From positions 1 through 64,000 of IMG/VR virus record IMGVR_UViG_3300029904_000002: 64,000 nucleotides of DNA. One strand, given 5' to 3'. This document shows, piece after piece, positions 21,733 through 61,483 of the stretch; the stretch's first letter is position 1; the number at the start of each line of letters is the position of its first letter. Both the position numbers and the translations under genes were made by a program. The stretch comes from a virus. Below the pieces are notes generated by a model, which ran no database searches, had not been told where the DNA came from, and saw only the letters and a program-made list of their open reading frames with translations.

Positions 21733-22941
21733 ATGAGTTTAAACGGTGTTGACATTGCTAATTACCAGGCAGGTATCAATATTGCTGCAATGACTACAAC
21801 AGACTTCGTCATTGTAAAAGCTACACAAGGTACATGGTACACGTCACCATCATTTGTTAAGCAGTATTCTGATGCAAAAGCTGCTGGTAAGCTGCTTGGT
21901 ATTTATCACTATGCAGAAGGTAAAGACTACAAAGCTGAAGCAGATTACTTCTTGAAAACAATCGGTGATCGCGTAGGAGAGGCTATTCTTTGTCTTGACT
22001 GGGAAGGAACGGACAATGCAACTTTCAATTCCGGAAAAGATAAAACATGGGTTAAGAATTGGTGCGACTATGTTGCATCTAAAACCAATGTTAAGCCGCT
22101 TGTATATACTTCCAAAGCATATATGGGCAACCTTTCTGGAATTGGAGATTATGGTCTTTGGATCGCACAGTATGCAAACAATAATCCTACCAATTATCAA
22201 GCTACTCCTTGGAATGAAGGCGCATATTCTTGTGCTATTCGTCAGTATTCATCTACGGGTAGAATCAAAGGTTATAGCAGCAACATAGACTTAAACAAAT
22301 TCTACGGAGATGCTACAGCTTGGAAGAAATATGCTAACCCAGGAAACGCAAAACCTGTAGAGGGTGGATCTTCTAATCCATCTACTCCTTCTACAACACC
22401 TTCAGGATCTACGTTAGATCTCGTGTTAGGTGTAATGCAGGGCAAATATGGTGATGGAAATGCTCGTAAAGCTGCACTTGGTACAAAGTATAATGAAGTT
22501 CAGAATATGATAAATCATATTGCTACAGCGTCTGCTTCAACGCTTGCAAACGAAGTAAAAGCTGGAAAATATGGAAATGGTGATACTCGCAAAACAGTTT
22601 TAGGATCAAGGTATACCGAGGTTCAGAATATTGTGAATGCAGGATCTAAAAAATCGAATGATGAGATCGCTAATGAAGTAATCGCAGGTAAATGGGGCGA
22701 TGGAAATACTCGTAAGTCTAAACTTGAAGCTGCTGGATATGACTATGATGCGGTACAAGCCATTGTCAATAAGAAATTAGGAGCTTCAAGTTCTGGTAAA
22801 CAGTATTATACGATCAAGAAAGGTGATACACTATCCGGTATAGCTTCTAAATATGGTACCACTGTAAGTAAACTACAATCTTTGAACGGCATCAAGAATG
22901 CAAACGTCATTTATGCAGGTCAGAAGATTAGGGTGAAGTAA
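21733..22941 (+). CDS. endolysin: GH25 muramidase + 3 Cpl-7 (CW_7) repeats + LysM
   Basis: 402 aa; [24 protein letters not shown] (GH25); three [10 protein letters not shown]-type repeats; C-term [18 protein letters not shown] (LysM). Confidence 0.9.
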
Positions 22942-33264: not shown

Positions 33265-33374
33265 CAGGTACAAACATTGTACCTGATTATATATATCAAC
33301 TTTTCATAAGACCAGTTATGTAATAACCTTGACGTCCTGGTCTAAAACAAAAAATAATAGGAGGTAAATTGAAT

Positions 33375-34124
33375 ATGAATAAGTTGAAATCAACCATTGT
33401 CAGTGAGATAGAAGATTACAAAATTCTTCTTAGGAATGTTCCTGCATTGACGATGGTTTTCTTTGTGTTGAGTGTAGTGTTCATGAATGTGTTCGCCGGG
33501 AAAGAGCTAATAAGTGTGGAATATCTTGCTCTTGACTGTGGATTTATTTTATCATGGATGAGCTTCTTATGTATGGATATGCTTACAAAAAGATTTGGTG
33601 CAAAAGCTGCTATCAAATTATCACTCTTATCTGTATTTATAAATCTTATCTGTTGCTTGGTATTTTTTATTGAATCAAAGATTGGCAATAACTGGTCTGT
33701 ATTTTATAACTATAATGATCCTATTGCAAACGATGCACTTAATGATACATTTGGAGGTACTTGGTATGTATTACTTGGATCGACTATTGCAATGATTATT
33801 GCATCTGTTGTAAATGCTATCATAAATCAAGCAATCGGAAATCGTATGAAGAAAAATAATTTCTTTGCATATGCACTCAGATCTTATGTATCGACTGCTT
33901 TCGGACAGTTTGTAGATAATTTTGTATTTGCTATGATTGTATCTGTCACATTCTTTGGGTGGAATATGACGCAAGTAATTATGTGCTCTATCACCGGTGC
34001 TGCTTGTGAATTGTTAGCTGAAGTTATTTTTTCTCCTCTAGGATTTAAGGCATGCAGAAGATGGGAAAGTTATGGAGTGGGACAGAACTATATCGACTAT
34101 ATGAATTCACAGAAATCTGCGTAA
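33375..34124 (+). CDS. YhhQ/VUT-family queuosine-precursor transporter-like membrane protein
   Basis: ORF track 33369..34124; ATG 33375 lies 10 nt after GGAGG; multi-pass hydrophobic; MDMLTKRFG resembles the D..TE.YG motif of YhhQ; adjacent to the que operon. Confidence 0.7.
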   Translation: MNKLKSTIVSEIEDYKILLRNVPALTMVFFVLSVVFMNVFAGKELISVEYLALDCGFILSWMSFLCMDMLTKRFGAKAAIKLSLLSVFINLICCLVFFIESKIGNNWSVFYNYNDPIANDALNDTFGGTWYVLLGSTIAMIIASVVNAIINQAIGNRMKKNNFFAYALRSYVSTAFGQFVDNFVFAMIVSVTFFGWNMTQVIMCSITGAACELLAEVIFSPLGFKACRRWESYGVGQNYIDYMNSQKSA

Positions 34125-34129
34125 TATGT

Positions 34130-34142
34130 GAATCGTTATATA
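34130..34142 (+). promoter_or_regulatory. gAATCGTTAt promoter-like motif copy (GAATCGTTATATA)
   Basis: 6 nt after the transporter stop; 26 nt upstream of ATG 34168; heads the que operon. Confidence 0.6.
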
Positions 34143-34167
34143 CATACAGATAAAGGAGGTAATTCAT

Positions 34168-34317
34168 ATGAGTAAATCAGAGATGAAAAAGAAACTTCAG
34201 AATTTTATTGATAATCTTATGAAGGATTATAATGATAAACTTGAGTGTTTTGTAAGAGATGAAGATGATATGATTAGAGAATTCAAGTCTATCATTGAAG
34301 ATTCAGATGAGGTGTAA
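34168..34317 (+). CDS. small acidic protein, 49 aa (MSKSEMKKKLQNFIDNLMKDYNDK...)
   Basis: Own translation; GGAGG 8 nt upstream; below the ORF-track cutoff; first gene of the que operon. Confidence 0.45.
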   Translation: MSKSEMKKKLQNFIDNLMKDYNDKLECFVRDEDDMIREFKSIIEDSDEV

Positions 34318-34320
34318 TAG

Positions 34321-35013
34321 ATGAGAGTAGTCATAACTGGAGCTTCTAGAGGAATTGGTCGTGCATGTGTTAAAAAATTTCTTGATGAAGGCCACGAAGT
34401 ATTTGGAATAGATGTAGAGAATGATCTCTATGCATCTAAAATATATTTAGGAGATAAAGCAGGTAACTATACACATCATTGCAGAAATGTGAAGTCAGAC
34501 AGAGCTCTGCCTCAAATCAGATGCGTTGACATACTGATCAACAATGCGGGAACACAAGATAATGATGCTATTGATGTCAATCTCAAAGGGTTAATTAGAA
34601 CCACAGAGGAATATGGATTGCAACCAAATATTAAATCCATCTGTAATATGGCAAGTGTTTCTGCCCATAACGGTGCAGAATTTCCTTACTACGTTGCATC
34701 CAAAGGAGGAGTATTGTCATACACCAAGTGGACTGCAAAGGAAATTGCAAAATATGGTGCTACATGTAATAGCTTATCTTTTGGCGGAGTTATGACTGAT
34801 TTGAACCAGTCTGTAATAGATGATGACGAAGCTTGGGAAGAGATAATGTGTATGACACCACTGAGAAAGTGGATGACTCCTGAAGAATGTGCAGAATGGG
34901 TATATTTCTTAACTGTTATAAACAAGAGTTGCACTGCACAAGATATTGTAGTTGACAACGGAGAATTATTTAATCATACATTTGTATGGAGAGAAGAGGA
35001 GGATATTTTCTAG
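34321..35013 (+). CDS. short-chain dehydrogenase/reductase (SDR)
   Basis: 230 aa; [10 protein letters not shown] cofactor motif; catalytic S...YVASK (YxxxK); ends 2 nt before queF. Confidence 0.88.
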
Positions 35014-35014
35014 T

Positions 35015-35518
35015 ATGAGTAGAAGCAAAGAAGATTTAGGCAATGTAACGTCTTTAGGATCTAATAAAACAAAGTACCCTACAGATTACGATCCGAGCGT
35101 ACTTGAATATTTTATCAATAAGCATCCTGAAAGTGATTATGTAGTTTCATTTGATGCTTATGAATTCAGTAGCTTATGTCCTAAAACTGGACAGCCGGAT
35201 TTTGCAAAGGTTGTGATATCATATATACCAAATTCTAAAATGGTGGAGAGCAAATCACTAAAACTATATCTGTTTAGTTTTAGGAATCATGGAGACTTCC
35301 ATGAGGATTGTATAAATATCATTATGAGTGATTTAATTTCTCTAATGGATCCTAAATATATTGAAGTTAAAGGAATATTTAGTCCCAGAGGAGGAATTTC
35401 AATATTTCCATTTGTAAACTATGCAGACCCTAGATACCAATATCAGGAATTTGCAAAGCAGCGTCAGTTAGATGCATTAAGAGATGCATCAAACAGAACT
35501 GTACGTTATGATATGTAA
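35015..35518 (+). CDS. queF: NADPH-dependent 7-cyano-7-deazaguanine (preQ0) reductase, type I
   Basis: ORF track 34952..35518; start moved to ATG 35015 (167 aa); motif [14 protein letters not shown]. Confidence 0.88.
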
Positions 35519-35598
35519 TGGTTAATTCTGCACAAGACAGTGCTGTCACCCTAGCTTGTGCAGTCTTAATAAATATTAAAAACAGGAGGTTTCAAACT

Positions 35599-36309
35599 AT
35601 GAAACAGCGAAAAGCAATAGTATTGAATTCAGGAGGAGCTGATTCCACAACATGTGTAGGAATTGCAGTTGATTCTGAAAAGTACTCAGAAGTAGCTACA
35701 GTAAGTGTACTGTATGGGCAGACGCATCAGAAAGAACTCAAATGTGCTCAGAATGTGGCTAATCATTATCATCTTAATCACTATGAATTAGATCTTTCAT
35801 CTGTACTCAGGTTCAGTAATTGTTCTCTTCTTAAAGGAAGTACAGAATCAATCCCTGAAAAAAGTTATGCAGAGCAGATTGCAGAAAATGGAGAAGGTAA
35901 AGTATCAACATATGTTCCGTTTAGGAATGGTCTCATGTTATCCTCTGTTGCTGCACTAGCACAGTCGATTTGGTCCGAAGATGATGTAGATATCTTACTA
36001 GGAGCTCATGCAGATGATGCTGCTGGTAGAGCGTATGCTGATTGTAGTGAGGAGTTTACATCTGCGATGAATACTGCAATCATCATAGGAACTTACGGAA
36101 AAGTAAGAGTAGTTGCACCGCTTGTAAATATGAATAAAGCTGAAGTCATTAAAGCGGGATTGGACTTAAATGTTCCATATGAACTTACCACAAGTTGCTA
36201 CAAAGGTGGAGATAAAGCATGTGGAAAATGCGGAACATGTATTGATCGTCTTAATGCATTCCATGAAAATGGTGTAGAGGATCCTATTGAATATGAGGAG
36301 GATAATTGA
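35599..36309 (+). CDS. queC: 7-cyano-7-deazaguanine synthase
   Basis: ORF track 35518..36309; ATG 35599 behind GGAGG; SGGADS PP-loop; C-terminal zinc Cys cluster C..CGKCGTC. Confidence 0.9.
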   Translation: MKQRKAIVLNSGGADSTTCVGIAVDSEKYSEVATVSVLYGQTHQKELKCAQNVANHYHLNHYELDLSSVLRFSNCSLLKGSTESIPEKSYAEQIAENGEGKVSTYVPFRNGLMLSSVAALAQSIWSEDDVDILLGAHADDAAGRAYADCSEEFTSAMNTAIIIGTYGKVRVVAPLVNMNKAEVIKAGLDLNVPYELTTSCYKGGDKACGKCGTCIDRLNAFHENGVEDPIEYEEDN

Positions 36310-36311
36310 GT

Positions 36312-36641
36312 ATGTATTATGTAAGAAAAGAATTGGAAGTTTCAGCAGCACATAAATTGGAACTTGATTATGAATCTCCGTGCACAAATATGCATGGACA
36401 TAATTGGAAAATAACAGTATTTTGTAAGTCTGATGAAGTCAATCAAAACGGTATGGTTATTGACTTCAAGGAGATTAAAAAGTCTGTTCATGCAGTTATG
36501 GATCATAAATATCTTAACGATGTATTTGATTTCAACCCTACTGCAGAAAACATTGCAAAATGGATTGTTGATTCAATTCCATGCTGCTATCGAGCAGAGG
36601 TTGAAGAGAGCTCTAATAATTGGGCTGCATATGAGGAGTAG
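36312..36641 (+). CDS. queD: 6-carboxy-5,6,7,8-tetrahydropterin synthase
   Basis: 109 aa from ATG 36312; VSAAHKL..C..MHGHNWKI signature. Confidence 0.9.
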   Translation: MYYVRKELEVSAAHKLELDYESPCTNMHGHNWKITVFCKSDEVNQNGMVIDFKEIKKSVHAVMDHKYLNDVFDFNPTAENIAKWIVDSIPCCYRAEVEESSNNWAAYEE

Positions 36642-36647
36642 ATCGAT

Positions 36648-37304
36648 ATGGAAGAATTAATCAAAGTTTCTGAAATCTTTAGGTCCATAGATGGAGAGGG
36701 TATCCGAACAGGATACCCTGTAACCTTCATACGTCTATATGGATGTAATCTTAAATGTAGTTACTGTGATTCTTCATATGCAACTACATATGGTGATTAT
36801 ACATTGATGAGTATATCAGATATCGTAGAACATGTAGATTACTTTGGTTTACACAGAATCACATTAACAGGAGGAGAACCGCTTGCATGCGATCAATGTT
36901 ATGATTTGGTAACTGCATTAACTGATGCAGGATATGAAGTAAATATTGAGACTAATGGAAGTCTTTCAATACTTCCATATGTTGATATGAAAAATGTGAT
37001 CCTTACTATGGATTATAAGTGTCCTTCATCTAATATGGAAGATAGAATGAATAGATTGAATCTTCCTCTATTAAGATCAAAAGATGTTCTAAAGTTTGTA
37101 GTAGGATCTAAACTTGACCTATCAACTATGCTTGCAGTGGTTAATGGATATGATATTAGTGCAAACATCTTTGTTAGTCCCGTATTTGGAGAGATAGATC
37201 CTAAAGAAATTGTAGATTTTCTTATCTGTAATGAAGTTGAAAATGTTCGTATTCAACTTCAGTTGCACAAGATAATTTGGGATCCAAATATGAGAGGAGT
37301 GTAA
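36648..37304 (+). CDS. queE: 7-carboxy-7-deazaguanine synthase (radical SAM)
   Basis: 218 aa; CNLKCSYCDS cluster motif; position between queD and folE. Confidence 0.88.
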   Translation: MEELIKVSEIFRSIDGEGIRTGYPVTFIRLYGCNLKCSYCDSSYATTYGDYTLMSISDIVEHVDYFGLHRITLTGGEPLACDQCYDLVTALTDAGYEVNIETNGSLSILPYVDMKNVILTMDYKCPSSNMEDRMNRLNLPLLRSKDVLKFVVGSKLDLSTMLAVVNGYDISANIFVSPVFGEIDPKEIVDFLICNEVENVRIQLQLHKIIWDPNMRGV

Positions 37305-37307
37305 GAT

Positions 37308-37934
37308 ATGAAAGATGGATTGAATAAGGAGTACTGGGATACTCAATTGATAAAATCTATAGTTCCAGGAGAAGATCCAAATGTTGTCATAGAAAAATGC
37401 GTATATAACATATTACTTGCATTAGGAGAAAATCCAGATAGACCTGGATTGGTTGAAACTCCTAAAAGAGTGAGAAAAGCCTATCAAGAAATATTTAGCT
37501 CAATCGATAAATCTAATGAAAGAATAGCTGAGGAAAACTCGAAATCATTTGATATTGAATCTAATGATCTTGTAACAGAGCTTCATATTCCATGCTATTC
37601 TATGTGTGAGCATCATTTACTTCCGATGAAACTCGATATCAGTATCGGTTATCTTCCTAAAGGTAAAGTTTTAGGCCTTTCTAAGATGGCTAGAATTGCA
37701 GACGCTGTCTGCAGGAGACCTCAGCTTCAGGAGAGAATTGGACATGATATTGCGGACATCATGATGAAAGCAACTGGTAGCGAAGATGTAATTGTAGTAA
37801 TATCAGGAGAGCATTATTGCATGACAATGCGCGGAGTTAAGAAACCTGGGACTTATACAAGAACAGCAGCTATGAGAGGTAAATTTGATACTGATCATGC
37901 ACTCAGACAAGAGTTCTACAATCTTATAGGTTAG
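37308..37934 (+). CDS. folE: GTP cyclohydrolase I
   Basis: 208 aa; CEHHLLP motif. Confidence 0.9.
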   Translation: MKDGLNKEYWDTQLIKSIVPGEDPNVVIEKCVYNILLALGENPDRPGLVETPKRVRKAYQEIFSSIDKSNERIAEENSKSFDIESNDLVTELHIPCYSMCEHHLLPMKLDISIGYLPKGKVLGLSKMARIADAVCRRPQLQERIGHDIADIMMKATGSEDVIVVISGEHYCMTMRGVKKPGTYTRTAAMRGKFDTDHALRQEFYNLIG

Positions 37935-37937
37935 TAT

Positions 37938-37950
37938 GAATCGTTATTAA
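37938..37950 (+). promoter_or_regulatory. gAATCGTTAt promoter-like motif copy (GAATCGTTATTAA), nested in a terminator
   Basis: 4 nt after the folE stop; its 3' end forms the base of the 37949-37979 hairpin; 49 nt upstream of ATG 37999. Confidence 0.55.
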
Positions 37951-37980
37951 GTGTGATACATGCGATATGTATCACACTTT
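37949..37980 (+). terminator. 12-bp stem-loop with T tail
   Basis: AAGTGTGATACA-TGCGATA-TGTATCACACTT, then TCTTTAT. Confidence 0.65.
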
Positions 37981-37998
37981 CTTTATGGAGGAGTGAAT

Positions 37999-38811
37999 AT
38001 GAATAACATTGATAAAATACTTCAATATCTACAACTTGTATCAAAACATCCTATCATTGTAGATGATCAGATATATGATAGGTGTTTAAAGATACATAGA
38101 ATACAACTTTCTAATACATTTTTCTTGACAGATGGATGTAATTCTTGTGGATGCTGTGATGTTCCTGAAGATAATGTATATGTTCAGTTTGAATATGATC
38201 GTATTATGAATATAAGTGAACCTGAATATCATTCATACAATAAACTGCTTGATATGAATCAACTTCAACGATTGCGTGATGGACTGAAGCAGGAAATGCA
38301 TACAATTAATTTTAAGCGTGTACCTGTATATGTTTTCAAGTTAGAGAAGCAGCATCTGTATTTATCGCAAAAGCAGAAGGTTGTTGAAAGATGTACCTGG
38401 TCCTTTAGCCCTGATAGAGATCATCCGGAAGAACCTACAGATAAATTTACAACGTATTATTGTCATATTCATCCAGTCACATCAATCACTTGTAAGATGC
38501 CGCATCTTAGATTTTTAAATAATTCTAAATCTGATTGTTGCAGAATCGGAATATATCAGTTTGGAAGAAATTGGGCAACTAAATGTCCTATCATATTTAA
38601 AGATCCTGAATCTGAGTCTGTCTTCAGTGCAAACAAGAAAAATCGACTTGATAAACTTGAATATCTGCAGAAAGTTTCGGAGGAGCTTGGAATAGATACT
38701 TATTTACCAAATATAATCCAATTTGTATCAAAAATATCCTTCAATAACTACAGAGATTACTTGAATGTAGATATTGTAAACACACAATCTAAATCGAAAA
38801 GATTATTCTGA
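37999..38811 (+). CDS. CxxCxxCC (YkgJ/UPF0153-like) putative Fe-S or zinc protein
   Basis: ORF track 37960..38811; ATG 37999 behind GGAGG; motif CNSCGCC; further Cys/His-rich segments; not TGT-like. Confidence 0.6.
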   Translation: MNNIDKILQYLQLVSKHPIIVDDQIYDRCLKIHRIQLSNTFFLTDGCNSCGCCDVPEDNVYVQFEYDRIMNISEPEYHSYNKLLDMNQLQRLRDGLKQEMHTINFKRVPVYVFKLEKQHLYLSQKQKVVERCTWSFSPDRDHPEEPTDKFTTYYCHIHPVTSITCKMPHLRFLNNSKSDCCRIGIYQFGRNWATKCPIIFKDPESESVFSANKKNRLDKLEYLQKVSEELGIDTYLPNIIQFVSKISFNNYRDYLNVDIVNTQSKSKRLF

Positions 38812-51110: not shown

Positions 51111-51311
51111 ATGATGAAATTGAAATTTACGGATTTAACATTTGAAAAGATTCAGGATTATGATCCTTTCAATGAGAGAGCAAACGCAATTGGCATGGTC
51201 ACAAGCTGGGTGGCTAGAAATCCATTTGGAAATTCTGTAGCATTTGGAGATACAAAAGCTGAATGTGAGAAAGATGCTAGAAGATGGATCAAATATGGTC
51301 AAGGGAGGTGA
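51111..51311 (+). CDS. hypothetical protein
   Basis: ORF track 51105..51311; ATG 51111 or 51114 behind GGAGG. Confidence 0.5.
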   Translation: MMKLKFTDLTFEKIQDYDPFNERANAIGMVTSWVARNPFGNSVAFGDTKAECEKDARRWIKYGQGR

Positions 51312-51316
51312 TAAGA

Positions 51317-51757
51317 TTGTCACAGACAATGGTTTCTCAAAGAGCACATTTTGAGTGTGCTTATATCTACAAAAGAAATGATAAGTATATCTTGAATGCA
51401 CACGACTACAAGGTAGAAGTTACCGTCACTTCACCTGATAGGGTGTCACCTGTAATTATATCATTTGAAGATCTGAAATCTGCAGTAGTGTCTGCACTTC
51501 CACATCAGAAATTTCTCATTTCTAATAAGGAGGGATCAGATAACTCAATTGATTTATCACTAATAGGTATATTTGCACAGTTTGATACAGGTCTGTACTG
51601 CGTCATTCCTGATTACATATGTGCAGAGACGCTTGTCAATTACATTGCTTCTAAGATTGATGATAATCTCTTAGAATATGGGTGCTTATTGTGGCAGGTA
51701 CGGTTGATAGAATCATCAGATTCTTATGTTACATGGAATCGTGCGTCTAAACTTTAG
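51317..51757 (+). CDS. degenerate PTPS/QueD-fold paralogue
   Basis: ORF track 51284..51757; TTG 51317 lies 8 nt after GGAGG. Aligns by eye to the phage QueD (FECAYIY..NAHDYKVEVTV..ISFEDLK..ESSDSY vs VSAAHKL..MHGHNWKITV..IDFKEIK..ESSNNW), but two of the three metal-binding His and the Cys are replaced. Confidence 0.5.
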   Translation: MSQTMVSQRAHFECAYIYKRNDKYILNAHDYKVEVTVTSPDRVSPVIISFEDLKSAVVSALPHQKFLISNKEGSDNSIDLSLIGIFAQFDTGLYCVIPDYICAETLVNYIASKIDDNLLEYGCLLWQVRLIESSDSYVTWNRASKL

Positions 51758-52682: not shown

Positions 52683-55286
52683 TTGAGATTATTTAGCTCT
52701 GCTCAAGCAGATAAAATCAATCGAGTAGCTGAACGAACGAAAGATTCTATTCAAGCGCCTAAAAAAGTAAGTGCTAAGAACATTTCAAGCGAATTGGAAC
52801 GAATATCTAAGCAGGTGCTTGAATACTTCAAAGATTCTGATGCTATCTTGATTGAGAGTAGAGAACAGCTTCACGATTATGTGACAAAATTGATTGAATC
52901 TGGATATGCAGGTATAGATACTGAGACGACTGGTCTTGATCGTATTCATGATACTATTGTAGGATCCTCACTTTACTATCCTGGAGGAGTTGAATGTTAC
53001 ATACCTAATAAGCATCTTGTCCCGATATTCGATCAGCCCTATAAGGGTCAGCTTACATATGAAGATGTACAAGAAGAGTTTCAACGTATTGCAGATTCAA
53101 GTGTGAAGCTGATCTTCGCGAATGCTGATTTCGACTTGGCTATGATCTTCAAAGATTATAAGGTGGATCTTGTCAAAAGGTGTTATTATGATGTTATTAT
53201 CGGGTGGCGTGTGATTCGAGAAGGTGAACAGCATTATGATTTGAAAGGATTATATAATCGGCATGTATTGAAAGGAAAGGGAGATCCTAAGAAATTTAGT
53301 GATTTTTTCTCTCCTCAGCTTTTTCCATATTGTAAGCCTCACATAGCAAAGTTATATGCTGCACACGATGCTAAAATAACATTTGAGGAGTTCAAATTTC
53401 AACTTCCGTTTGTTACAAAATCTAATGAAAAGTGTATATCAAATCATCTTGAGCGTATAGCTGATCTTGTCTGGGAAGTTGAAATGCCTATGATTGGAGT
53501 ATGCCAGCAGCTACATCGTAATGGTATATACTTAGATAAAGATATTGCAAAAGCACTTCAGGATAAGTATCATTCCGAACGGGATAAAGAATTGAAAATA
53601 CTGCAAGATATGGTTCAACAGATAATTGATGAAAGAGGATACACAGTTCCGTCGTCGATCAAAAAACCATTTTTGTCTGGTTCCGACTTCAATCCTACGT
53701 CTCCTCTTCATGTTAAGTATCTTCTTTATACACTGATGGGGATACCTTCCGATGGTAAGAAAGAGGGAACTGGTAAAGATGTTCTAAATGAACTTAATCT
53801 TCCTGTCACTAATCAGATTTTGAAAGTAAGATCTTATGGAGTATTGATCAATACATTTGTAGACAAGATGCCTAAAATAACAGCTACAGATGGTAGAGTG
53901 CATGCTACATTTAGGCAGGTCGGTGCAGATACGGGTCGCATGTCATCTGCAGATCCAAACTTGCAGAATATTCCGTCTCATGCAACAGATATACGTCATA
54001 TGTTTAAAGCATCTCCTGGATACGTTATGATGTCTAGCGACTATAGTCAGCAGGAACCAAAGTTGACAGCATTTGTAAGTCAGGACAAGAAAATGTTTGA
54101 AGCATTTACGCATGGTAGAGATATATATGCTACTATTGCGTCTATCGGATTCAATGTACCTTATGAGAACTGTCTTGAGTTTCATCCAGAGACTCATGAG
54201 TATCAGCCCGATGGTAAAGCTCGTCGAGGAGAAGCTAAGACTGTGCTTCTGGGAGTACTTTATGGTAGATCTATACCATCTATTGCAGAGCAGTTGTATG
54301 GTAAACGAACAGATATGTCAGATAAAGAAAAAGTAACTGCTGCACAGAAAGTCTATGATTCAATCATGAATGGATTTCCATCACTTAGAAACGCAATGCT
54401 GTCCGCACAGGATCACGCAAGAAAGTTTGGATATACAGAAACTATTTTAGGACGACGACGTCATCTTCCAGATATGCAATTACCTGAATTTGAATTCAAA
54501 CCGATGCCTGGATATGTCAATCCTGATATAGATCCACTTGATCCTTCTACATTGAATCAGAAGGAAGAGATTCCAAAAAGAATAACAGATGCTCTTTTAA
54601 AAGAGTTCAAAGGTTACAAATATTTTGGCCAGATAGTGAAACGTACAAAACAACTTGCTGAAGAACACATTCGTGTTATCAACAACCGTGCAAAGATAAA
54701 CGATGCTACTCGGCAGTGTCTAAACGGCGTTATCCAAGGCTCAGCTGCTGACATGACGAAGTTAGCATTACTTAACATATATGAGAGCGATGACTGGGAA
54801 CGACTTGGTGGTCGTCTACTGATTCCGATTCATGATGAAATTCTTTGTGAATTTCCTAAGGAAAATTATGAAGAAGGTGCAAAGCTTCTTAGCAAGCTGA
54901 TGTCATCTGCAGGTAGTTTTCTTCCTTTTCCTATCAATTGTGATGTAGAAGTTACAACAAATTGGTATGGCCTTGAATATCCTTGCCCATATAAGCAGCC
55001 GGAATCACTCGATACAGTAGATCCTGATGAGATCAAATGGATTCAGTACATGCTATTTGAATGCGAGTATTCTCTGCCTAAACATAAAGAAATGTTTGGT
55101 GAAGAATTCCGAGGTGACATTGCAAAAGGTGTAGACGGTGTATACTCAGATGAGATAAAATCCATGATTGATGATTACAAATCTAAGTGGAGAATTGAAT
55201 CGGACAAGGATTTCATAAACATGATCAAAACACATGTTATCGATGGAGTTACACCTTATGATCAGATGCACCGTGAATCGTTATAA
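52683..55286 (+). CDS. polA: family-A DNA polymerase with 3'-5' exonuclease domain
   Basis: 867 aa; Exo I GIDTETTGLD; motif A SSDYSQQEPK; motif B RRGEAKTVLLGVLYG; motif C PIHDEIL. Confidence 0.95.
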   Translation: MRLFSSAQADKINRVAERTKDSIQAPKKVSAKNISSELERISKQVLEYFKDSDAILIESREQLHDYVTKLIESGYAGIDTETTGLDRIHDTIVGSSLYYPGGVECYIPNKHLVPIFDQPYKGQLTYEDVQEEFQRIADSSVKLIFANADFDLAMIFKDYKVDLVKRCYYDVIIGWRVIREGEQHYDLKGLYNRHVLKGKGDPKKFSDFFSPQLFPYCKPHIAKLYAAHDAKITFEEFKFQLPFVTKSNEKCISNHLERIADLVWEVEMPMIGVCQQLHRNGIYLDKDIAKALQDKYHSERDKELKILQDMVQQIIDERGYTVPSSIKKPFLSGSDFNPTSPLHVKYLLYTLMGIPSDGKKEGTGKDVLNELNLPVTNQILKVRSYGVLINTFVDKMPKITATDGRVHATFRQVGADTGRMSSADPNLQNIPSHATDIRHMFKASPGYVMMSSDYSQQEPKLTAFVSQDKKMFEAFTHGRDIYATIASIGFNVPYENCLEFHPETHEYQPDGKARRGEAKTVLLGVLYGRSIPSIAEQLYGKRTDMSDKEKVTAAQKVYDSIMNGFPSLRNAMLSAQDHARKFGYTETILGRRRHLPDMQLPEFEFKPMPGYVNPDIDPLDPSTLNQKEEIPKRITDALLKEFKGYKYFGQIVKRTKQLAEEHIRVINNRAKINDATRQCLNGVIQGSAADMTKLALLNIYESDDWERLGGRLLIPIHDEILCEFPKENYEEGAKLLSKLMSSAGSFLPFPINCDVEVTTNWYGLEYPCPYKQPESLDTVDPDEIKWIQYMLFECEYSLPKHKEMFGEEFRGDIAKGVDGVYSDEIKSMIDDYKSKWRIESDKDFINMIKTHVIDGVTPYDQMHRESL

Positions 55287-55287
55287 A
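55275..55287 (+). promoter_or_regulatory. gAATCGTTAt promoter-like motif copy (GAATCGTTATAAA)
   Basis: Overlaps the last codons of polA; 41 nt upstream of ATG 55328. Confidence 0.55.
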
Positions 55288-55327
55288 CATTGTAGTACAA
55301 TATCAATTTCAAAAGGAGAATAATTAT

Positions 55328-56431
55328 ATGGAATTTAAGACAAACACACAGCCGTTATCAGATGCACTGAATCTTGGAATTGTAAATGCTAATGTATCTA
55401 AATTTTATCAGCCTAGCTGCTTAGCACATCTTACAGCTAAGAGAAACAAGTTGATTATCAATTTAGAGGCTGAGAGGTTACTTACTCAGATTACAGTGTC
55501 TGGCATGGGTTCCGAAAACGGCGAAGCTTCTATCTTTGTAGATAACTTGAAGCTTAAACAGCTTGTGAATAGCTTTGATACAAATACTATAGATATGATG
55601 TTTGAAGAGGATGGTCTTACATTAAAATCTGGTAAAGCTAAATTCACGTTATCTAAGATGGTAGAGGAGGAAGTAGCAATTCAGAAGCCTGCTATGCCAT
55701 TTGAAGATGATCCTCAGATTGAAGTATCTAAAGATGATTGGAAATTCATCAGCGATAAACAGATGTATGCTATCGCAATGAATTACATACATCCTGTATA
55801 TACAAGAGCTTGGATGGGCGACAAAGGTGATGTCATTGTAGGTGATTATGATAGCAGCTTGTTTACACATTCTACTAAGAATACATTAGGCATCACATGT
55901 CTTTTGAAAGATACTATTGTTAATTTACTTAACAGCCTTCCAGAAGGATCTAAACTTTACAAACACGGTAGATCATATATCGTAATTGTTAATACAGAGG
56001 GTTACGAGATGGTGACAGAGTTTACACCGGAATATGAAGATGAAGAAGGTTCTATTGGAAACTACAACTCTGATATCATATTAGGCATCTTTACTAAACC
56101 TGAGGAGCATATCACATTCAATCCTTCTGTCATAAATAAGTTTCTTGCTCAAGCTGATATCTTAGCAGAAGGGTCTGATGATATCATTGATGTATCGTTT
56201 GGGCATGATAAGCTTTCATTTAATGGAGATCGGGTAGATTATAGTGTAGATGTCACCGGATCCTGTATGCCATTTGAATTAAAATTCAAGTCAAAAGCTT
56301 TGAAGAGTGTACTGTCTCGATATGATGGAGAAAAGATGAACCTTGCACCGCTTAGCAATGGAGATGAGATTGCAGGTATTACAGTTTGGTCTGATGAGCT
56401 TGTAACGTCAATCGCAGGAGTTGAAGAATAA
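55328..56431 (+). CDS. dnaN: beta sliding clamp-like protein
   Basis: 367 aa (beta-clamp length); N-terminal pattern MEFKTNTQPLSDALNLGIV..; context next to polymerase and clamp-loader genes; not verified by search. Confidence 0.6.
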   Translation: MEFKTNTQPLSDALNLGIVNANVSKFYQPSCLAHLTAKRNKLIINLEAERLLTQITVSGMGSENGEASIFVDNLKLKQLVNSFDTNTIDMMFEEDGLTLKSGKAKFTLSKMVEEEVAIQKPAMPFEDDPQIEVSKDDWKFISDKQMYAIAMNYIHPVYTRAWMGDKGDVIVGDYDSSLFTHSTKNTLGITCLLKDTIVNLLNSLPEGSKLYKHGRSYIVIVNTEGYEMVTEFTPEYEDEEGSIGNYNSDIILGIFTKPEEHITFNPSVINKFLAQADILAEGSDDIIDVSFGHDKLSFNGDRVDYSVDVTGSCMPFELKFKSKALKSVLSRYDGEKMNLAPLSNGDEIAGITVWSDELVTSIAGVEE

Positions 56432-57228
56432 TGGCATTCAGAGAAGCAAATCTTGAGCATTTGGCAAAATTTAATTCATCAGGATCTATGTATTTATTAG
56501 ATGCATACAATAAACAACTGGATGATGATATTAGTGGGAGGGCGTCTATGCCCTCTCACAAAACATTTGCACCTTCCGCACTTCGATGTAAGCGTAGATC
56601 ATGGTTTAGACTTCGAGGTACGCAACCTGATAAGCCTAGGTCTACGGATAGAATATTAGAGTTTACAGCAGACGTCGGTACAGCTTGCCATTCAATGGTA
56701 CAAGAGCGGTTGATACGAGCTTTGAAATCTTCAGATCAATTTGAATGGATTGATGTTGTAGGATATCTTCGTAGTGAAGGATTTTTTGACCGTCATGATA
56801 TCAGAACTTTACGAAATGGATATGAAACACAAGTCGAATTTAAAAATCCACCAGTAAGGTTTGCTGTAGATGGGTTACTTCGTTACGATGATGAATATTG
56901 TTTATTCGAGATAAAAACTTCAGAATATTCAGTTTGGAATGATTTGACAGACCCTAAAGAGGAGCATATTGATCAGTTTAAAGCTTATTGTACATTGTTA
57001 GAATTGAATAGAGGATTCTTCTTCTACGTAGATCGACAATATGGAGGTATCAAATGCTTTGAATTGAATGTGTCACTTCAAGATCAGGAAGAAATCCGCA
57101 CAATGTTTACCGAAGTTCAACAATATGCCGAATTTGGAATCGCTCCTGATCCTCTGCCTACAGGTGACAAATGGTGTACACCTAATTTTTGCCCATATTA
57201 TGAAAAGTGCAAGCAGTTCGGGAGGTGA
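56431..57228 (+). CDS. Cas4/RecB-like PD-(D/E)XK exonuclease with Cys cluster
   Basis: 265 aa; FEIKTSE core; one N-terminal Cys (RCKRR) plus C-terminal CTPNFCPYYEKC. Confidence 0.7.
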   Translation: MAFREANLEHLAKFNSSGSMYLLDAYNKQLDDDISGRASMPSHKTFAPSALRCKRRSWFRLRGTQPDKPRSTDRILEFTADVGTACHSMVQERLIRALKSSDQFEWIDVVGYLRSEGFFDRHDIRTLRNGYETQVEFKNPPVRFAVDGLLRYDDEYCLFEIKTSEYSVWNDLTDPKEEHIDQFKAYCTLLELNRGFFFYVDRQYGGIKCFELNVSLQDQEEIRTMFTEVQQYAEFGIAPDPLPTGDKWCTPNFCPYYEKCKQFGR

Positions 57229-57233
57229 TTTAG

Positions 57234-57536
57234 TTGTTCACAATAGAATTTCCATATGACATAGGAACATTTGTTCAAGTCAATAATAGTATGAGAGGTG
57301 AATCTCCAAAGCCTAAAGAATGCTGGGATGACTTAGGAGATATCGGCATTATTGAGTTCTATAATTGTGTAGATAATTCACAGACTGATGACAAGTTTGT
57401 AGTTGTTGTGTCCGGCTATGAGCAATCATGGTGCGGAGAGTATCTACTTCGTGAGATACGATTGCTAACGGATGATGAAATTGCAATCGTTAAAAATGAT
57501 AATATCATCAGAGATGAGGAGGTAGAAGATGCCTAA
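57234..57536 (+). CDS. hypothetical protein
   Basis: ORF track 100 aa, TTG start. Confidence 0.5.
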   Translation: MFTIEFPYDIGTFVQVNNSMRGESPKPKECWDDLGDIGIIEFYNCVDNSQTDDKFVVVVSGYEQSWCGEYLLREIRLLTDDEIAIVKNDNIIRDEEVEDA

Positions 57537-58554
57537 TTTAGCAGCAAAGTATAGGCCACGAACTTGGGATGAAGTTGTTGAGCAAAAGATGGTCATTCAT
57601 ATGGTTAAAGGATTGATTGATAACGAATGTATGGATGTTCGCAACTTCTTGTTTACAGGCCCTGCGGGGTGCGCAAAGACGACGATTTGTAGGATACTTG
57701 CAAATGTTCTCAATGAAGGTAAAGGGGAACCTATTGAAATTGATGCAGCTTCTAACAGCGGTGTAGATAATATGCGAGTGATCATTGATCAAGCACGCTC
57801 ATATCCTGTGGGCACAAAATGGAAAATTTTCATCATAGATGAAGTTCATTCCTTTTCTAATGCAGCGTGGCAAGCAGCTTTGAAGACATTTGAAGAAGTC
57901 CCTGCACGTACAATATTTTTGATGGCTACAACAAACCCTGAAAAGATTCCACCTACTATATTATCACGTGTTCAGCAATTTCGATTATCAAAGATATCGG
58001 TAGAGGGAATTGAGAATCGGCTTAAGTATATAGTTGAGCAGGAGAATAGCGAGGGTCAGAATATTACATACACCCAAGATGCAATTAGTTATATTGCTAA
58101 GATGGCAAATGGTGGTATGCGTGATGCAATTACATTATTGGAGAAGGCAATAGCAAGTGATTCAAACATTACATCACAATCTTTGATGACGTCTTTAGGT
58201 CTGCCTAACTATGATCAGTTTTTTGAACTTCTTCAAGCTTATGCATCAAAGGACAATGCTGGTATTGCAAAGATTATAGATGAGGTATATAATTCAGGTG
58301 TGAATTTTGCAAAATGGATGACTGATTTCCATGCATTTACAATCAATGTAGTGAAATATATACTTTTGAAAGACATATCCAAAACTATGATACCTGGACA
58401 TTATGAGGATAAGATCAAGCCGTATGGCAATGCACATCTTATGATTTGTTTAAAACTTGCATCTAAACTTGTCAAGTTGAACAATGAGTTACGATTCAGT
58501 CAATATCAACAAGAGCTTACTCTCACATATCTCTGTTCCGTAGTTAAGAAATGA
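57529..58554 (+). CDS. dnaX: clamp-loader AAA+ ATPase (DnaX tau/gamma-like)
   Basis: 341 aa; Walker A GPAGCAKTT; Walker B IIDEVH; sensor SRVQQF. Confidence 0.82.
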   Translation: MPNLAAKYRPRTWDEVVEQKMVIHMVKGLIDNECMDVRNFLFTGPAGCAKTTICRILANVLNEGKGEPIEIDAASNSGVDNMRVIIDQARSYPVGTKWKIFIIDEVHSFSNAAWQAALKTFEEVPARTIFLMATTNPEKIPPTILSRVQQFRLSKISVEGIENRLKYIVEQENSEGQNITYTQDAISYIAKMANGGMRDAITLLEKAIASDSNITSQSLMTSLGLPNYDQFFELLQAYASKDNAGIAKIIDEVYNSGVNFAKWMTDFHAFTINVVKYILLKDISKTMIPGHYEDKIKPYGNAHLMICLKLASKLVKLNNELRFSQYQQELTLTYLCSVVKK

Positions 58555-58562
58555 TTTGTGAA

Positions 58563-58583
58563 GGGCTACAAATATTGTAGCCC
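58563..58583 (+). terminator. stem-loop, 9 bp, no T tail
   Basis: GGGCTACAA-ATA-TTGTAGCCC. Confidence 0.4.
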
Positions 58584-58596
58584 TGAAATACTGTTT

Positions 58597-58609
58597 GCAT
58601 CGTTATATA
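58597..58609 (+). promoter_or_regulatory. gAATCGTTAt promoter-like motif copy (GCATCGTTATATA)
   Basis: After the hairpin; 23 nt upstream of ATG 58632. Confidence 0.6.
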
Positions 58610-58631
58610 TTGATAGATAGGAGGATTGATA

Positions 58632-59207
58632 ATGAATTTCGACTTAATTGAACAAAAGTATCAGAAGGATATTGATGCTGTCATCGATTATGAGAATGAT
58701 ATTTACAATCATCTGTTTGCAGATGAATTTTCCGAGATTTTGAAACTGTCTGACGCAATTAAGCAATCGGGGTATCGATCACCTTCAGACGAAGTACTGG
58801 AACTCATCTTAATAGATGTGCCATTAAAACTTTTTGATGTGGCTGAGAGACTTAATCAGCTTGAGCTAACACTTCAGGTACTTAAGTTAGAGCTCAAAGA
58901 AAAGAAGATACAGCTTAAGCATTGCGACCATGTTCAAAATCTAAATTCTACAGAGACATCCGATTATATCACGTCAAAAACTATTGAGGATGAGCTTATG
59001 ATCTGCGTGTACACTAAGTTGATTGAAAGGGTGAATTCGCAAGTTTCATATTCTAAAGAGCTTATAATGAGCGCTAAAAAGCTATGGGATCGCAGAAAAG
59101 AAGCTGAATCTGTTATGCCGGTATCACCGGTTGATCCTACCTCTGTTCCGTATAATCCTACAGAGAGCAGAAAGCGACCTGTTTATGGGTCAACTGATGC
59201 GGTATGA
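58632..59207 (+). CDS. hypothetical coiled-coil protein
   Basis: ORF track 58626..59207; ATG 58632 lies 7 nt after GGAGG. Confidence 0.6.
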   Translation: MNFDLIEQKYQKDIDAVIDYENDIYNHLFADEFSEILKLSDAIKQSGYRSPSDEVLELILIDVPLKLFDVAERLNQLELTLQVLKLELKEKKIQLKHCDHVQNLNSTETSDYITSKTIEDELMICVYTKLIERVNSQVSYSKELIMSAKKLWDRRKEAESVMPVSPVDPTSVPYNPTESRKRPVYGSTDAV

Positions 59208-59219
59208 GAGAGGTGTTAT

Positions 59220-59769: not shown

Positions 59770-59780
59770 ATCGTTATAAT
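59768..59780 (+). promoter_or_regulatory. gAATCGTTAt promoter-like motif copy (AGATCGTTATAAT)
   Basis: Overlaps the stop codon; 20 nt upstream of TTG 59800. Confidence 0.55.
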
Positions 59781-61481: not shown

Positions 61482-61483
61482 GT

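What the first reader, a model, noticed from the sequence alone, without database searches (positions are those of the whole stretch)
33375..38811. The 7-deazaguanine operon has an embedded SDR reductase and flanking YhhQ-like and CxxCxxCC genes, but I recognise no transglycosylase in the window
folE, queD, queE, queC and queF are tightly packed (gaps of 1-6 nt except for 80 nt between queF and queC), so preQ1 synthesis from GTP is fully encoded. Inside the same operon, ending 2 nt before queF, is a classical SDR (TGxxxGIG, YxxxK) and a 49-aa acidic ORF. A YhhQ-type precursor transporter lies immediately upstream, and a 270-aa CxxCxxCC (YkgJ-like) Cys-rich protein immediately downstream. From memory, published phage 7-deazaguanine DNA-modification clusters pair these genes with a DpdA/TGT-family transglycosylase, and I do not recall an SDR or a YkgJ-like protein as a described component. 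No protein in this window showed features I recognise as TGT/DpdA-like. Three possibilities follow. DpdA may lie elsewhere in the genome. The phage may feed the host tRNA-guanine transglycosylase. Or the SDR and the Cys-rich protein may make or install a derivative that has not been described.
Basis: partly seen in the sequence, partly recalled or inferred. Interest (0 to 1): 0.7.

Follow-up and report, generated by a model that had tools for sequence, protein, structure and literature searches.

The report
Phage 7-deazaguanine DNA-modification cluster, transglycosylase nearby
This is a phage gene set for replacing guanine in its own DNA with a modified base; the enzyme that seemed to be missing lies 223 bases past the window's end, the cysteine-rich protein belongs to a known methylase family, and only the reductase, which always sits beside a transporter gene, is undescribed.

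Summary
Window 33375-38811 (+) encodes a Vut_1/YhhQ-like transporter, a 49-aa ORF, a classical SDR, QueF, QueC, QueD, QueE, FolE and a Cys-rich protein. No transglycosylase lies in the 64 kb.

The puzzle is mostly resolved:
- **dpdA exists.** A contig 100% identical to window 53176-64000 carries a 335-aa DpdA that starts 223 nt beyond the window's end. Its closest characterised relative is Streptococcus phage Dp-1 Gp7; Dp-1 DNA contains dPreQ1.
- **The Cys-rich protein is a DpdM homologue.** DpdM is the YkgJ-like dPreQ1 N-methyltransferase described in 2023. HHalign gives 95-96% probability to the phiSM and VH7D DpdM proteins, and relatives sit directly upstream of dpdA.

Predicted product: dPreQ1, probably methylated to mdPreQ1, inserted after replication.

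The SDR remains undescribed. It is an NAD-type subfamily that lies next to a COG1738/QPTR transporter in 51 of 67 viral loci and 74 of 80 gut-bacterial loci. In phages it is usually within 8 kb of dpdA or que genes. I infer that it processes an imported queuosine precursor, possibly queuine to preQ1; this is untested.

Verdict: a new variant of a known system, of moderate interest.

The parts
33265..33285 (+). Terminator-like hairpin closing the upstream gene; marks the 5' boundary of the cluster
   Evidence: 9-bp stem followed by a T-rich tail
33329..33358 (+). Promoter-like site (TTGACG-18-AATAAT) 17 nt upstream of the transporter's ATG
   Evidence: 10 of 12 consensus matches. This is a consensus match only; promoter-like sites are not enriched over shuffles.
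33375..34124 (+). Vut_1/COG1738 (YhhQ/QPTR-like) transporter of a divergent subfamily that is paired with the SDR
   Evidence: PF02592 82.4 bits. TIGR00697 41.8 bits, below the 50.95 cutoff. 21% identity to E. coli YhhQ. Orthologues lie next to the SDR in phage and bacterial loci.
34168..34317 (+). 49-aa acidic ORF of unknown function
   Evidence: No family hit. Conserved only in the two closest relatives, L001 and L002 (E about 1e-28).
34321..35013 (+). Classical short-chain dehydrogenase/reductase, predicted NAD(H)-type, partner of the transporter
   Evidence: PF13561 90 bits and PF00106 77 bits. No NCBIfam equivalog reaches its cutoff. Invariant G7, S9, G11, G13, D31, N75-A76-G77, S112, Y124. 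Genomic association.
35015..35518 (+). QueF, unimodular NADPH-dependent preQ0 reductase (preQ0 to preQ1)
   Evidence: TIGR03139 159.8 bits against cutoff 86.9 and PF14489 113 bits. The [14 protein letters not shown] motif and the Cys in CPKTGQPD are visible in the translation.
35599..36309 (+). QueC, 7-cyano-7-deazaguanine (preQ0) synthase
   Evidence: TIGR00364 158.9 bits against cutoff 150.3; PF06508 186 bits
36312..36641 (+). QueD, 6-carboxytetrahydropterin synthase
   Evidence: TIGR03367 92.8 bits against cutoff 89.25. CTNMHGH (CxxxHGH) motif in the translation.
36648..37304 (+). QueE, radical-SAM 7-carboxy-7-deazaguanine synthase (Clostridial type)
   Evidence: TIGR03963 256.7 bits (cutoff 260.1); PF04055
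37308..37934 (+). FolE, GTP cyclohydrolase I
   Evidence: TIGR00063 184.8 bits against cutoff 181.6; PF01227 215 bits
37949..37979 (+). 14-bp-stem hairpin between folE and the dpdM-like gene; possibly an attenuator or partial terminator
   Evidence: the T tail is weak
37999..38811 (+). DpdM-like (YkgJ/CxxCxxCC-family) Cys-cluster protein, predicted dPreQ1 N-methyltransferase
   Evidence: HHalign to phiSM DpdM: 95.4%, E 2e-8. HHalign to VH7D DpdM: 96.2%, E 2e-9 over 222 columns. A relative scores 22.9 bits on PF03692. AlphaFold2 model pLDDT 84. Three BFVD fold matches at E 4e-9 to 4e-6 and no PDB match. Relatives sit directly upstream of dpdA.

Best explanation
The cluster is the substrate-supply and tailoring part of a DpdA-dependent, post-replicative 7-deazaguanine DNA-modification system in a roughly 160-kb phage.

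- FolE, QueD, QueE and QueC make preQ0 from GTP, and QueF reduces it to preQ1. These assignments are shown by family membership.
- A DpdA transglycosylase is encoded about 25 kb downstream, 223 nt beyond the window. It exchanges guanine in phage DNA for the deazaguanine base. The gene's presence is shown; its substrate is inferred from its Dp-1 relative, whose DNA contains dPreQ1.
- The Cys-rich protein is a DpdM homologue and probably methylates dPreQ1 to mdPreQ1. The homology is shown; the activity is inferred.
- The Vut_1 transporter and SDR form a two-gene salvage unit taken from gut bacteria. It imports a queuosine precursor and converts it into the base that DpdA (or bacterial TGT) uses. 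The association is shown; the function is inferred.
- My preferred chemistry for the SDR is NAD+-dependent oxidation of queuine's allylic hydroxyl, followed by beta-elimination that releases preQ1. This step is speculative.
For: **que genes.**

**dpdA.**
- L100 is 10,825/10,825 identical to window 53176-64000.
- Its 335-aa ORF matches a 25-sequence DpdA profile at E 3.5e-76.
- It hits Dp-1 Gp7 (34% identity, E 4e-37) and the CAjan DpdA by tblastn, and the phiSM DpdA by BLASTP (E 5e-25).
- The same gene lies about 25.7 kb from the Cys-rich gene on IMG/VR contig 3300045988_142498.
- Dp-1 DNA carries 3389 dPreQ1 per 10^6 nt (PMC6884629).

**DpdM.**
- Homology is shown; the fold results are.
- phiSM has dpdM directly upstream of dpdA, the same order as in 14 IMG/VR loci.

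**SDR and transporter.**
- In an SDR-seeded IMG/VR scan of 67 subfamily loci, 51 have a QPTR-family gene adjacent. Thirty-two have DpdA within 8 kb, and 43 have DpdA, the DpdM-like gene or at least three que genes.
- In GTDB genomes, 74 of 80 loci have the transporter adjacent, in housekeeping contexts.
- Some partner transporters pass the TIGR00697 equivalog cutoff (61-98 bits).
- In syntenic phages, the order PolA-DpdM-like-DpdA is followed either by one canonical QPTR (L030/L009, 105 bits) or by the divergent transporter plus the SDR (L023).
- The SDR directly precedes queF in at least 10 operons, so it is unlikely to substitute for QueF.
- Asp31 at the end of beta-2 is invariant. By established SDR rules this indicates an NAD(H) preference.
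Against: - No chemistry was measured; the final base (dPreQ1, mdPreQ1 or something else) is unknown.
- The DpdM-like protein is only about 24-26% identical to validated DpdM proteins. Its first Cys cluster has different spacing (C-x2-C-x-CC against C-x3-C-x2-CC), so its reaction could differ.
- dpdA is 25 kb from the operon, so co-regulation is not shown.
- No preQ1 riboswitch was found in the window or in 29 bacterial transporter-SDR loci. The bacterial pair is therefore tied to queuosine metabolism only through the transporter's family.
- Twenty-four of the 67 viral SDR loci show no DpdA, DpdM-like gene or que operon within 8 kb.
- The window's transporter falls below the TIGR00697 cutoff.
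- The proposed queuine-to-preQ1 reaction has no precedent for an SDR.
Confidence: 0.72

Rival explanations
1. The operon mainly supplies preQ1 to the host tRNA-guanine transglycosylase. This would raise queuosine in host and phage tRNAs, with DNA modification secondary or absent.
For: The window encodes tRNA-Asn(GTT), tRNA-Tyr(GTA) and tRNA-Asp(GTC), three of the four Q-accepting species. No transglycosylase lies in the operon itself. The transporter-SDR pair also occurs in bacteria without any DNA-modification genes.
Against: The genome encodes a DpdA of the phage DNA-modifying clade. It also encodes a homologue of DpdM, which acts on DNA. Relatives place the DpdM-like gene, dpdA, the transporter and the SDR side by side in the replication module. 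Every phage examined so far with que genes plus DpdA has modified DNA (PMC10516641).
Confidence: 0.1
2. The SDR is a pterin reductase of the sepiapterin or pteridine reductase type. It would work with FolE and a PTPS-like enzyme to make a tetrahydropterin, unrelated to deazaguanine.
For: FolE plus a PTPS-family enzyme plus an SDR is the tetrahydrobiopterin pathway layout (established knowledge). The window holds QueD and a second weak PTPS-like ORF at 51284-51757. The SDR matches no specific NCBIfam equivalog.
Against: Most loci with this SDR subfamily have no FolE or QueD within 8 kb but do have the transporter: 51 of 67 viral and 74 of 80 bacterial loci. None of the best 25 NCBIfam hits or the best 60 PDB hits is a pterin reductase. 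The invariant Asp31 predicts NAD rather than the NADPH used by known pterin reductases (SDR rule).
Confidence: 0.07
3. The SDR and the DpdM-like protein together make or install a 7-deazaguanine derivative not yet described. One example is reductive or oxidative C1 chemistry on the preQ1 amine, or insertion of a queuine-derived base into DNA.
For: The DpdM-like protein is highly diverged and has altered Cys spacing. The methyl donor of DpdM is unknown, and VH7D DpdM worked poorly alone in E. coli (PMC10516641). The SDR is conserved near DpdA. Twelve of the 67 SDR loci also carry the DpdM-like gene.
Against: The SDR and the DpdM-like gene occur independently. Many loci have the SDR without the DpdM-like gene, several have the reverse, and all 80 bacterial SDR loci lack it. 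The SDR's constant partner is the transporter.
Confidence: 0.11

Closest known systems
Streptococcus phage Dp-1 queuosine-like cluster (Gp1-Gp7: QueF-like, QueC, QueD, QueE, FolE, QueT, DpdA); DNA contains dPreQ1
   Same: It has the full FolE-QueD-QueE-QueC-QueF set plus a precursor transporter and a DpdA. Among isolates, the Dp-1 DpdA is second only to that of Bacillus phage Flasso (37%) as a relative of this phage's DpdA (34% identity, E 4e-37). The surrounding replication module is broadly similar (Cas4-like exonuclease, RecA/UvsX, clamp loader).
   Different: In Dp-1 the seven genes form one operon that ends in dpdA, and the transporter is an ECF QueT. Here dpdA lies 25 kb away, the transporter is Vut_1 family, and an SDR and a DpdM-like gene are added. 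tblastn finds no homologue of the Cys-rich protein or a close SDR in any GenBank phage.
[quoted passage not shown] 2023, PMC10516641)
   Same: These have the preQ1 pathway plus a YkgJ-like Cys-cluster protein. phiSM places dpdM directly upstream of dpdA, as do 14 relatives of this phage. HHalign gives 95-96% probability, and there is no solved structural relative, consistent with the 'unique fold' reported for DpdM.
   Different: Identity is only about 24-26%. The first Cys cluster is C-x2-C-x-CC here and CxxCxxCC in relatives, against CxxxCxxCC in DpdM. Neither the paper's text nor the phiSM locus I fetched shows an SDR or a QPTR-SDR pair for those phages. The activity of this protein is untested.
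QPTR/YhhQ (COG1738) queuosine-precursor transporters and known queuine salvage (QueK hydrolase, QueL radical-SAM queuine lyase)
   Same: The transporter belongs to the same Pfam family (Vut_1). Some SDR partners pass the TIGR00697 equivalog cutoff. The inferred role, delivering a usable 7-deazaguanine base from an imported precursor, matches the logic of known salvage routes (PMC11130926).
   Different: No SDR has been linked to Q salvage in the papers I could search. The window's transporter is a divergent subfamily below the equivalog cutoff, only 21% identical to E. coli YhhQ. No preQ1 riboswitch accompanies the pair.

Membership tests
Phage DpdA-dependent 7-deazaguanine DNA-modification system | preQ0 pathway genes FolE, QueD, QueE and QueC | tested here: met
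   FolE, QueD and QueC exceed their NCBIfam equivalog cutoffs. QueE scores 256.7 bits against a cutoff of 260.1 and also matches Radical_SAM.
Phage DpdA-dependent 7-deazaguanine DNA-modification system | A DpdA-family DNA transglycosylase encoded in the same genome | tested here: met
   None lies in the window. A 335-aa DpdA starts 223 nt beyond its end on a contig 100% identical over 10,825 nt. It hits Dp-1 and CAjan DpdA and phiSM DpdA, and it is present on the near-identical IMG/VR contig.
Phage DpdA-dependent 7-deazaguanine DNA-modification system | 7-deazaguanine nucleosides in virion DNA | not testable with these tools
   Requires LC-MS/MS of phage DNA.
QueF (NADPH-dependent preQ0 reductase, unimodular) | Equivalog score, NADPH motif E(S/L)K(S/A)hK(L/Y)(Y/F/W) and catalytic Cys | tested here: met
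   TIGR03139 159.8 bits against cutoff 86.9. ESKSLKLYL and CPKTGQPD are in the translation. The motif definition comes from PMC10516641.
DpdM (dPreQ1 N-methyltransferase, YkgJ/DUF3109-like) | Sequence homology to validated or assigned DpdM proteins (VH7D, phiSM) | tested here: met
   HHalign 96.2%, E 2e-9 over 222 columns to VH7D CF80_gp081. HHalign 95.4%, E 2e-8 to phiSM CEPG_00054. For scale, the two reference DpdM proteins are only 24.6% identical to each other.
DpdM (dPreQ1 N-methyltransferase, YkgJ/DUF3109-like) | N-terminal CxxxCxxCC metal-binding motif | tested here: inconclusive
   Four clustered cysteines are kept but with different spacing: C47-x2-C50-x-C52-C53 here and CxxCxxCC in most relatives. 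A relative scores 22.9 bits on Pfam PF03692 against a cutoff of 23; the window protein itself gives no Pfam hit.
DpdM (dPreQ1 N-methyltransferase, YkgJ/DUF3109-like) | Four further conserved cysteines forming the two predicted metal sites | tested here: met
   C132, C155, C165 and C196 are invariant in the family. The first three align with the phiSM cysteines in KCEF, RCGIH and FSCEF. Metal binding itself was not tested.
DpdM (dPreQ1 N-methyltransferase, YkgJ/DUF3109-like) | Genomic linkage to dpdA and to a preQ1 (QueF) pathway | tested here: met
   It lies directly upstream of dpdA in 14 IMG/VR loci, as in phiSM. Here it sits in the que operon that contains QueF.
DpdM (dPreQ1 N-methyltransferase, YkgJ/DUF3109-like) | Methylation of dPreQ1 in DNA | not testable with these tools
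   Needs heterologous expression with DpdA and LC-MS/MS.
QPTR/YhhQ queuosine-precursor transporter (TIGR00697 equivalog) | Pfam Vut_1 (PF02592) membership | tested here: met
   82.4 bits against cutoff 27.2
QPTR/YhhQ queuosine-precursor transporter (TIGR00697 equivalog) | Score at or above the curated equivalog cutoff | tested here: not met
   41.8 bits against 50.95. SDR-linked orthologues score 28-34 bits. Other SDR-linked transporters do pass, at 61-98 bits.
Classical SDR | TGxxxGxG, NNAG and a Ser-Tyr-Lys catalytic set | tested here: met
   [13 protein letters not shown]112 and Y124-x3-K128
Sepiapterin/pteridine reductase or FolM-type pterin SDRs | Specific family match and an NADPH-type cofactor site | tested here: inconclusive
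   No such family appears among the best 25 of 183 NCBIfam hits or the best 60 PDB hits. The invariant Asp31 predicts NAD. No dedicated profile was scored.
Bacterial or archaeal tRNA-guanine transglycosylase (PF01702) | TGT domain in any window ORF | tested here: not met
   No hit at E <= 0.001 in the 51 further ORFs of 100 aa or more scanned, nor in the cluster's own proteins scanned.

The most novel reading that the evidence does not exclude
The SDR is a previously unrecognised queuosine-precursor salvage enzyme and the obligate partner of COG1738/QPTR transporters in gut anaerobes. It may be an NAD+-dependent, non-radical route from queuine to preQ1, working by oxidation and then beta-elimination. 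Phages have captured the two-gene unit to feed their DNA transglycosylase from precursors available in the gut.
Probability: 0.25. Interest if true: 0.7.

Novelty: new variant of a known kind. Interest (0 to 1): 0.42.

Why it matters
Cui et al. 2023 proposed that every virus with 7-deazaguanine genes encodes a DpdA. This phage appeared to be an exception only because the window ended 223 nt too early, so the rule holds.

The analysis extends the very small DpdM family, previously assigned in only eight phages, by Cui et al. 2023. The new branch is diverged and comes from gut and rumen metagenome phages.

It also shows that Pfam TGT and the precomputed Pfam annotations miss this DpdA clade entirely. 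Scans that rely on them will wrongly report the transglycosylase as absent.

The new lead is the transporter-SDR pair. If the SDR processes an imported queuosine precursor, it would add an enzyme to micronutrient salvage in gut bacteria. It would also explain how phages without de novo genes obtain their modified base.

Tried and rejected
- **GenBank phages.** Megablast of the cluster found nothing. tblastn of the Cys-rich protein found nothing even at E <= 10.
- **Pfam as a TGT detector.** It turned out to be blind to phage DpdA, so the negative scans had to be repeated with my own profiles.
- **Linking DpdA to the genome by contig length.** I tried to match 'longest contig' lengths from a 5.8-billion-protein search. 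Only 120 of 1378 hits were listed and none matched.
- **First DpdA-seeded IMG/VR scan.** It missed this phage's DpdA because the derived motifs (PIFHQGE, D[YF]KWL) differ in it. A later scan seeded with the real protein found it.
- **Exact-protein look-up of the last window ORF.** It failed with the TTG start and worked with the internal ATG.
- **DpdA3.** The phiST CGPG_00065 sequence found nothing in the window or its flanks. This is a weak test.
- **preQ1 riboswitches.** None in the window or in 29 bacterial transporter-SDR loci.
- **A strict split between transporter types.** I considered that the SDR pairs only with the divergent transporter and that canonical QPTR genes stand alone. I rejected this because nine SDR loci carry canonical QPTR genes.
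- **The window's post-PolA 367-aa ORF as a Dp-1-like DnaN.** BLASTP was not significant (E 0.09).
- **Supplementary tables of Cui et al.** They are not held.
- **PDB searches with the Cys-rich protein.** No hit by sequence or by fold.

Full report
**1. Observation**

ORF listing and profile scans confirm a same-strand, tightly packed gene row at 33375-38811.
- Vut_1/YhhQ-like transporter: PF02592, 82 bits.
- A 49-aa acidic ORF with no family.
- A classical SDR: adh_short_C2 90 bits, with [12 protein letters not shown] and YxxxK.
- QueF: TIGR03139, 160 bits against a cutoff of 87. The NADPH motif ESKSLKLYL and the catalytic Cys are present.
- QueC, QueD (CxxxHGH present), QueE and FolE.
- A 270-aa Cys-rich protein starting at 37999. 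All 17 homologues begin MNNIDK or similar.

Gaps are 1-6 nt, except 80 nt between queF and queC. A terminator-like hairpin (33265-33285) and a promoter-like site (33329-33358) precede the transporter. A 14-bp-stem hairpin (37949-37979) separates folE from the Cys-rich gene. No Rfam family, including the preQ1 riboswitches, matches the region.

**2. Is a transglycosylase really absent?**

Pfam found no TGT domain in any ORF of 100 aa or more. That test proved uninformative, because bona fide phage DpdA proteins give no Pfam hit at all.

I therefore built DpdA profiles from related loci and searched all six frames of the window. The best E-values were 0.28 and 1.5. So the window has no DpdA of the DpdA1/2 kind. 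A single DpdA3 sequence (phiST CGPG_00065) also found nothing, although that is a weak test.

**3. Where the transglycosylase is**

An exact-protein look-up of the window's last ORF returned contig L100 (Logan SRR4096731_37). It is identical to window 53176-64000 at 10,825 of 10,825 positions.

On L100, 223 nt past the window's end (extended coordinates 64223-65230, + strand), lies a 335-aa ORF.
- It matches the 25-sequence DpdA profile at E 3.5e-76.
- It carries the DSGA(F/Y), P-x-FH-x-GE, TH-x-FG and SADS signatures.
- By tblastn it hits the transglycosylases of Bacillus phage Flasso (37%), Streptococcus phage Dp-1 (34%, E 4e-37) and Escherichia phage CAjan (27% over 85% of the query).
- By BLASTP it hits the phiSM DpdA at E 5e-25.

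The near-identical IMG/VR contig 3300045988_142498 (159,879 bp) has the same gene about 25.7 kb downstream of the Cys-rich gene. Two related large contigs also carry it.

Dp-1 DNA contains dPreQ1 at about 1.7% of G (PMC6884629). Cui et al. 2023 state that all viruses with 7-deazaguanine synthesis genes encode a DpdA (PMC10516641). This phage conforms.

**4. The Cys-rich protein**

It has only 18 homologues among 5.8 billion proteins, all from metagenomes, and no GenBank phage match.

Cui et al. 2023 described DpdM as a YkgJ homologue (DUF3109) with a CxxxCxxCC motif. They validated it in Vibrio phage VH7D as the dPreQ1-to-mdPreQ1 methyltransferase.

Evidence that the window's protein belongs to that family:
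- Profile comparison of its family with phiSM DpdM gives 95.4% probability, E 2e-8.
- Comparison with VH7D DpdM gives 96.2%, E 2e-9 over 222 columns, from the N-terminal helix to the C-terminal region.
- For scale, the two reference DpdM proteins match each other only at 24.6% identity, E 9e-4.
- Relatives score up to 22.9 bits on Pfam CxxCxxCC, whose cutoff is 23.
- An AlphaFold2 model (pLDDT 84, pTM 0.85) has three significant matches in the viral structure library, at E 4e-9 to 4e-6. Two of the targets are 217 and 304 aa, the lengths of the phiSM and VH7D DpdM proteins. Their identity is unverified.
- The model has no PDB match, which agrees with the 'unique fold' reported for DpdM.
- Eight cysteines are conserved.
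- In 14 IMG/VR loci the gene sits immediately upstream of dpdA, exactly as dpdM does in phiSM.

One difference remains. The first Cys cluster is C-x2-C-x-CC here, not C-x3-C-x2-CC. I therefore file the protein as DpdM-like and leave its activity open.

**5. The SDR**

It has no close homologue in GenBank phages; the best hits are about 30% identical generic FabG-like proteins. No NCBIfam equivalog reaches its cutoff, and the PDB hits are generic.

It nevertheless defines a conserved subfamily with an invariant Asp at the end of beta-2. By the standard SDR rule this predicts an NAD(H) preference.

An SDR-seeded scan of IMG/VR, which is unbiased with respect to other genes, gave 67 subfamily loci:
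- 51 have a COG1738-family transporter gene adjacent on the same strand.
- 32 have DpdA within 8 kb.
- 10 have the que operon starting directly after the SDR.
- 43 have at least one of DpdA, the DpdM-like gene or the que operon (30 of 43 after 90% dereplication).
- Twelve more distant SDRs in the same scan have none of these.

The same scan of 185,579 species genomes gave 80 loci in gut, rumen and termite MAGs (Clostridia, Treponema, Bacteroidales, Erysipelotrichales and others):
- 74 have the transporter adjacent.
- None has DpdA, the DpdM-like gene or a que operon.
- The neighbours are housekeeping genes: PFK, NrdD, Pth, MazG and PBP1A.

The transporter-SDR pair is therefore a cellular two-gene unit that phages have acquired.

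The partner transporter is of two kinds. One is the divergent type seen here, scoring 28-42 bits on TIGR00697 and below its cutoff. The other is a canonical queuosine-precursor transporter scoring 61-98 bits.

In otherwise syntenic 60-kb phages, the order PolA-DpdM-like-DpdA is followed either by one canonical QPTR or by the divergent transporter plus the SDR. This suggests the two arrangements deliver the same thing.

Relatives with a full de novo operon next to dpdA often lack the transporter, the SDR and the DpdM-like gene (L038, L053, L054, L059). These are accessory modules.

**6. Mechanism**

Shown by family membership: GTP goes to preQ0 through FolE, QueD, QueE and QueC, then to preQ1 through QueF.

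Inferred from homologues: DpdA exchanges G in double-stranded phage DNA for preQ1 (or preQ0), and the DpdM-like protein methylates the aminomethyl group.

Inferred from gene association only: the transporter imports a queuosine precursor and the SDR converts it into a usable base.

The SDR directly precedes queF in many operons, so it is unlikely to replace QueF. It is also predicted to be NAD-dependent. I therefore favour oxidation of queuine's allylic hydroxyl, followed by elimination of preQ1, by analogy with the transient-oxidation logic of SAH hydrolase. No tool result tests this.

Against a queuosine link in bacteria, no preQ1 riboswitch occurs in 29 bacterial loci.

**7. Comparison and novelty**

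Overall this is a member of the known DpdA/DpdM type of phage DNA hypermodification system, closest to those of Dp-1, phiSM and VH7D. It has an unusual split layout, with dpdA 25 kb from the operon in the replication module.

YhhQ homologues in such phages were already noted in 2019.

The SDR and its fixed pairing with COG1738 transporters are not mentioned in the papers I could search. That library is incomplete.

Hence my verdict: a new variant of a known kind, of moderate interest. The interest rests on the SDR lead rather than on the apparently missing transglycosylase.

Noticed in passing
window 2451-2524, 3584-3669, 4033-4108: Phage tRNA genes for Asn(GTT), Tyr(GTA) and Asp(GTC), three of the four queuosine-accepting tRNA species, among the 12 tRNAs in the first 5.5 kb. 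They may benefit from phage-made preQ1 through the host TGT.
   Followed up: no
window 51284-51757 (+): A second T-fold/PTPS-like ORF just upstream of the SSB and PolA genes (PF01242 25.9 bits; phrog_2389 E 1e-4). It lacks both the QueD CxxxHGH motif and the DpdL LxxxHRHxF motif, having LNAHDY instead. No homologue appears in the related loci.
   Followed up: partly
window 38806-38811 (C-terminus of the DpdM-like protein); L100:12041-12052 (C-terminus of DpdA): DpdA (40 of 87 sequences), the DpdM-like family (18 of 38), phiSM DpdM and this phage's DpdA all end in ...(K/R)xLF. Among 66 + strand window ORFs of 80 aa or more, only the DpdM-like protein does. This may be a shared docking motif, for example for the clamp or replisome. 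It was not tested.
   Followed up: partly
L100:13180-13956 (extended window coordinates 66355-67131): A 258-aa protein with a dATP/dGTP diphosphohydrolase N-terminal domain (PF18909, 58.9 bits) lies 1.1 kb downstream of dpdA. A MazG/dUTPase-like pyrophosphatase also neighbours the deazaguanine genes of phiST.
   Followed up: no
window 37949-37979: A perfect 14-bp-stem hairpin between folE and the dpdM-like gene. It overlaps the alternative upstream ATG at 37960 and may act as an attenuator or an RNA-processing site.
   Followed up: no
L005:9213-10792 and L006:9213-10789: Two tandem paralogues of the DpdM-like gene in two large-phage contigs. In the 175-kb contig the SDR lies about 30 kb away.
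   Followed up: no
L111, L113, L115-L121, L123-L125, L127, L128, L131, L137, L169 (IMG/VR contigs of about 26-51 kb, mostly about 44 kb): A group of small phages carries the transporter-SDR pair inside the replication module, between a RecA-like ATPase and a primase-helicase. No DpdA, DpdM-like gene or que gene lies within 8 kb. Whether they encode a DpdA elsewhere is unknown.
   Followed up: partly
window 21733-22941; 12377-13411; 9240-11234: A GH25-CW_7-LysM endolysin, a ThyX thymidylate synthase and an NAD-dependent DNA ligase. The lysin domains and the MAG sources of related loci point to a Gram-positive (Clostridia-like) host from an animal gut.
   Followed up: no
L100:16994-19348 (outside the window): A 784-aa protein (PF27249 MJ0330_N) with a weak intein-splicing match (E 0.007), possibly an intein-containing terminase or ATPase.
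   Followed up: no
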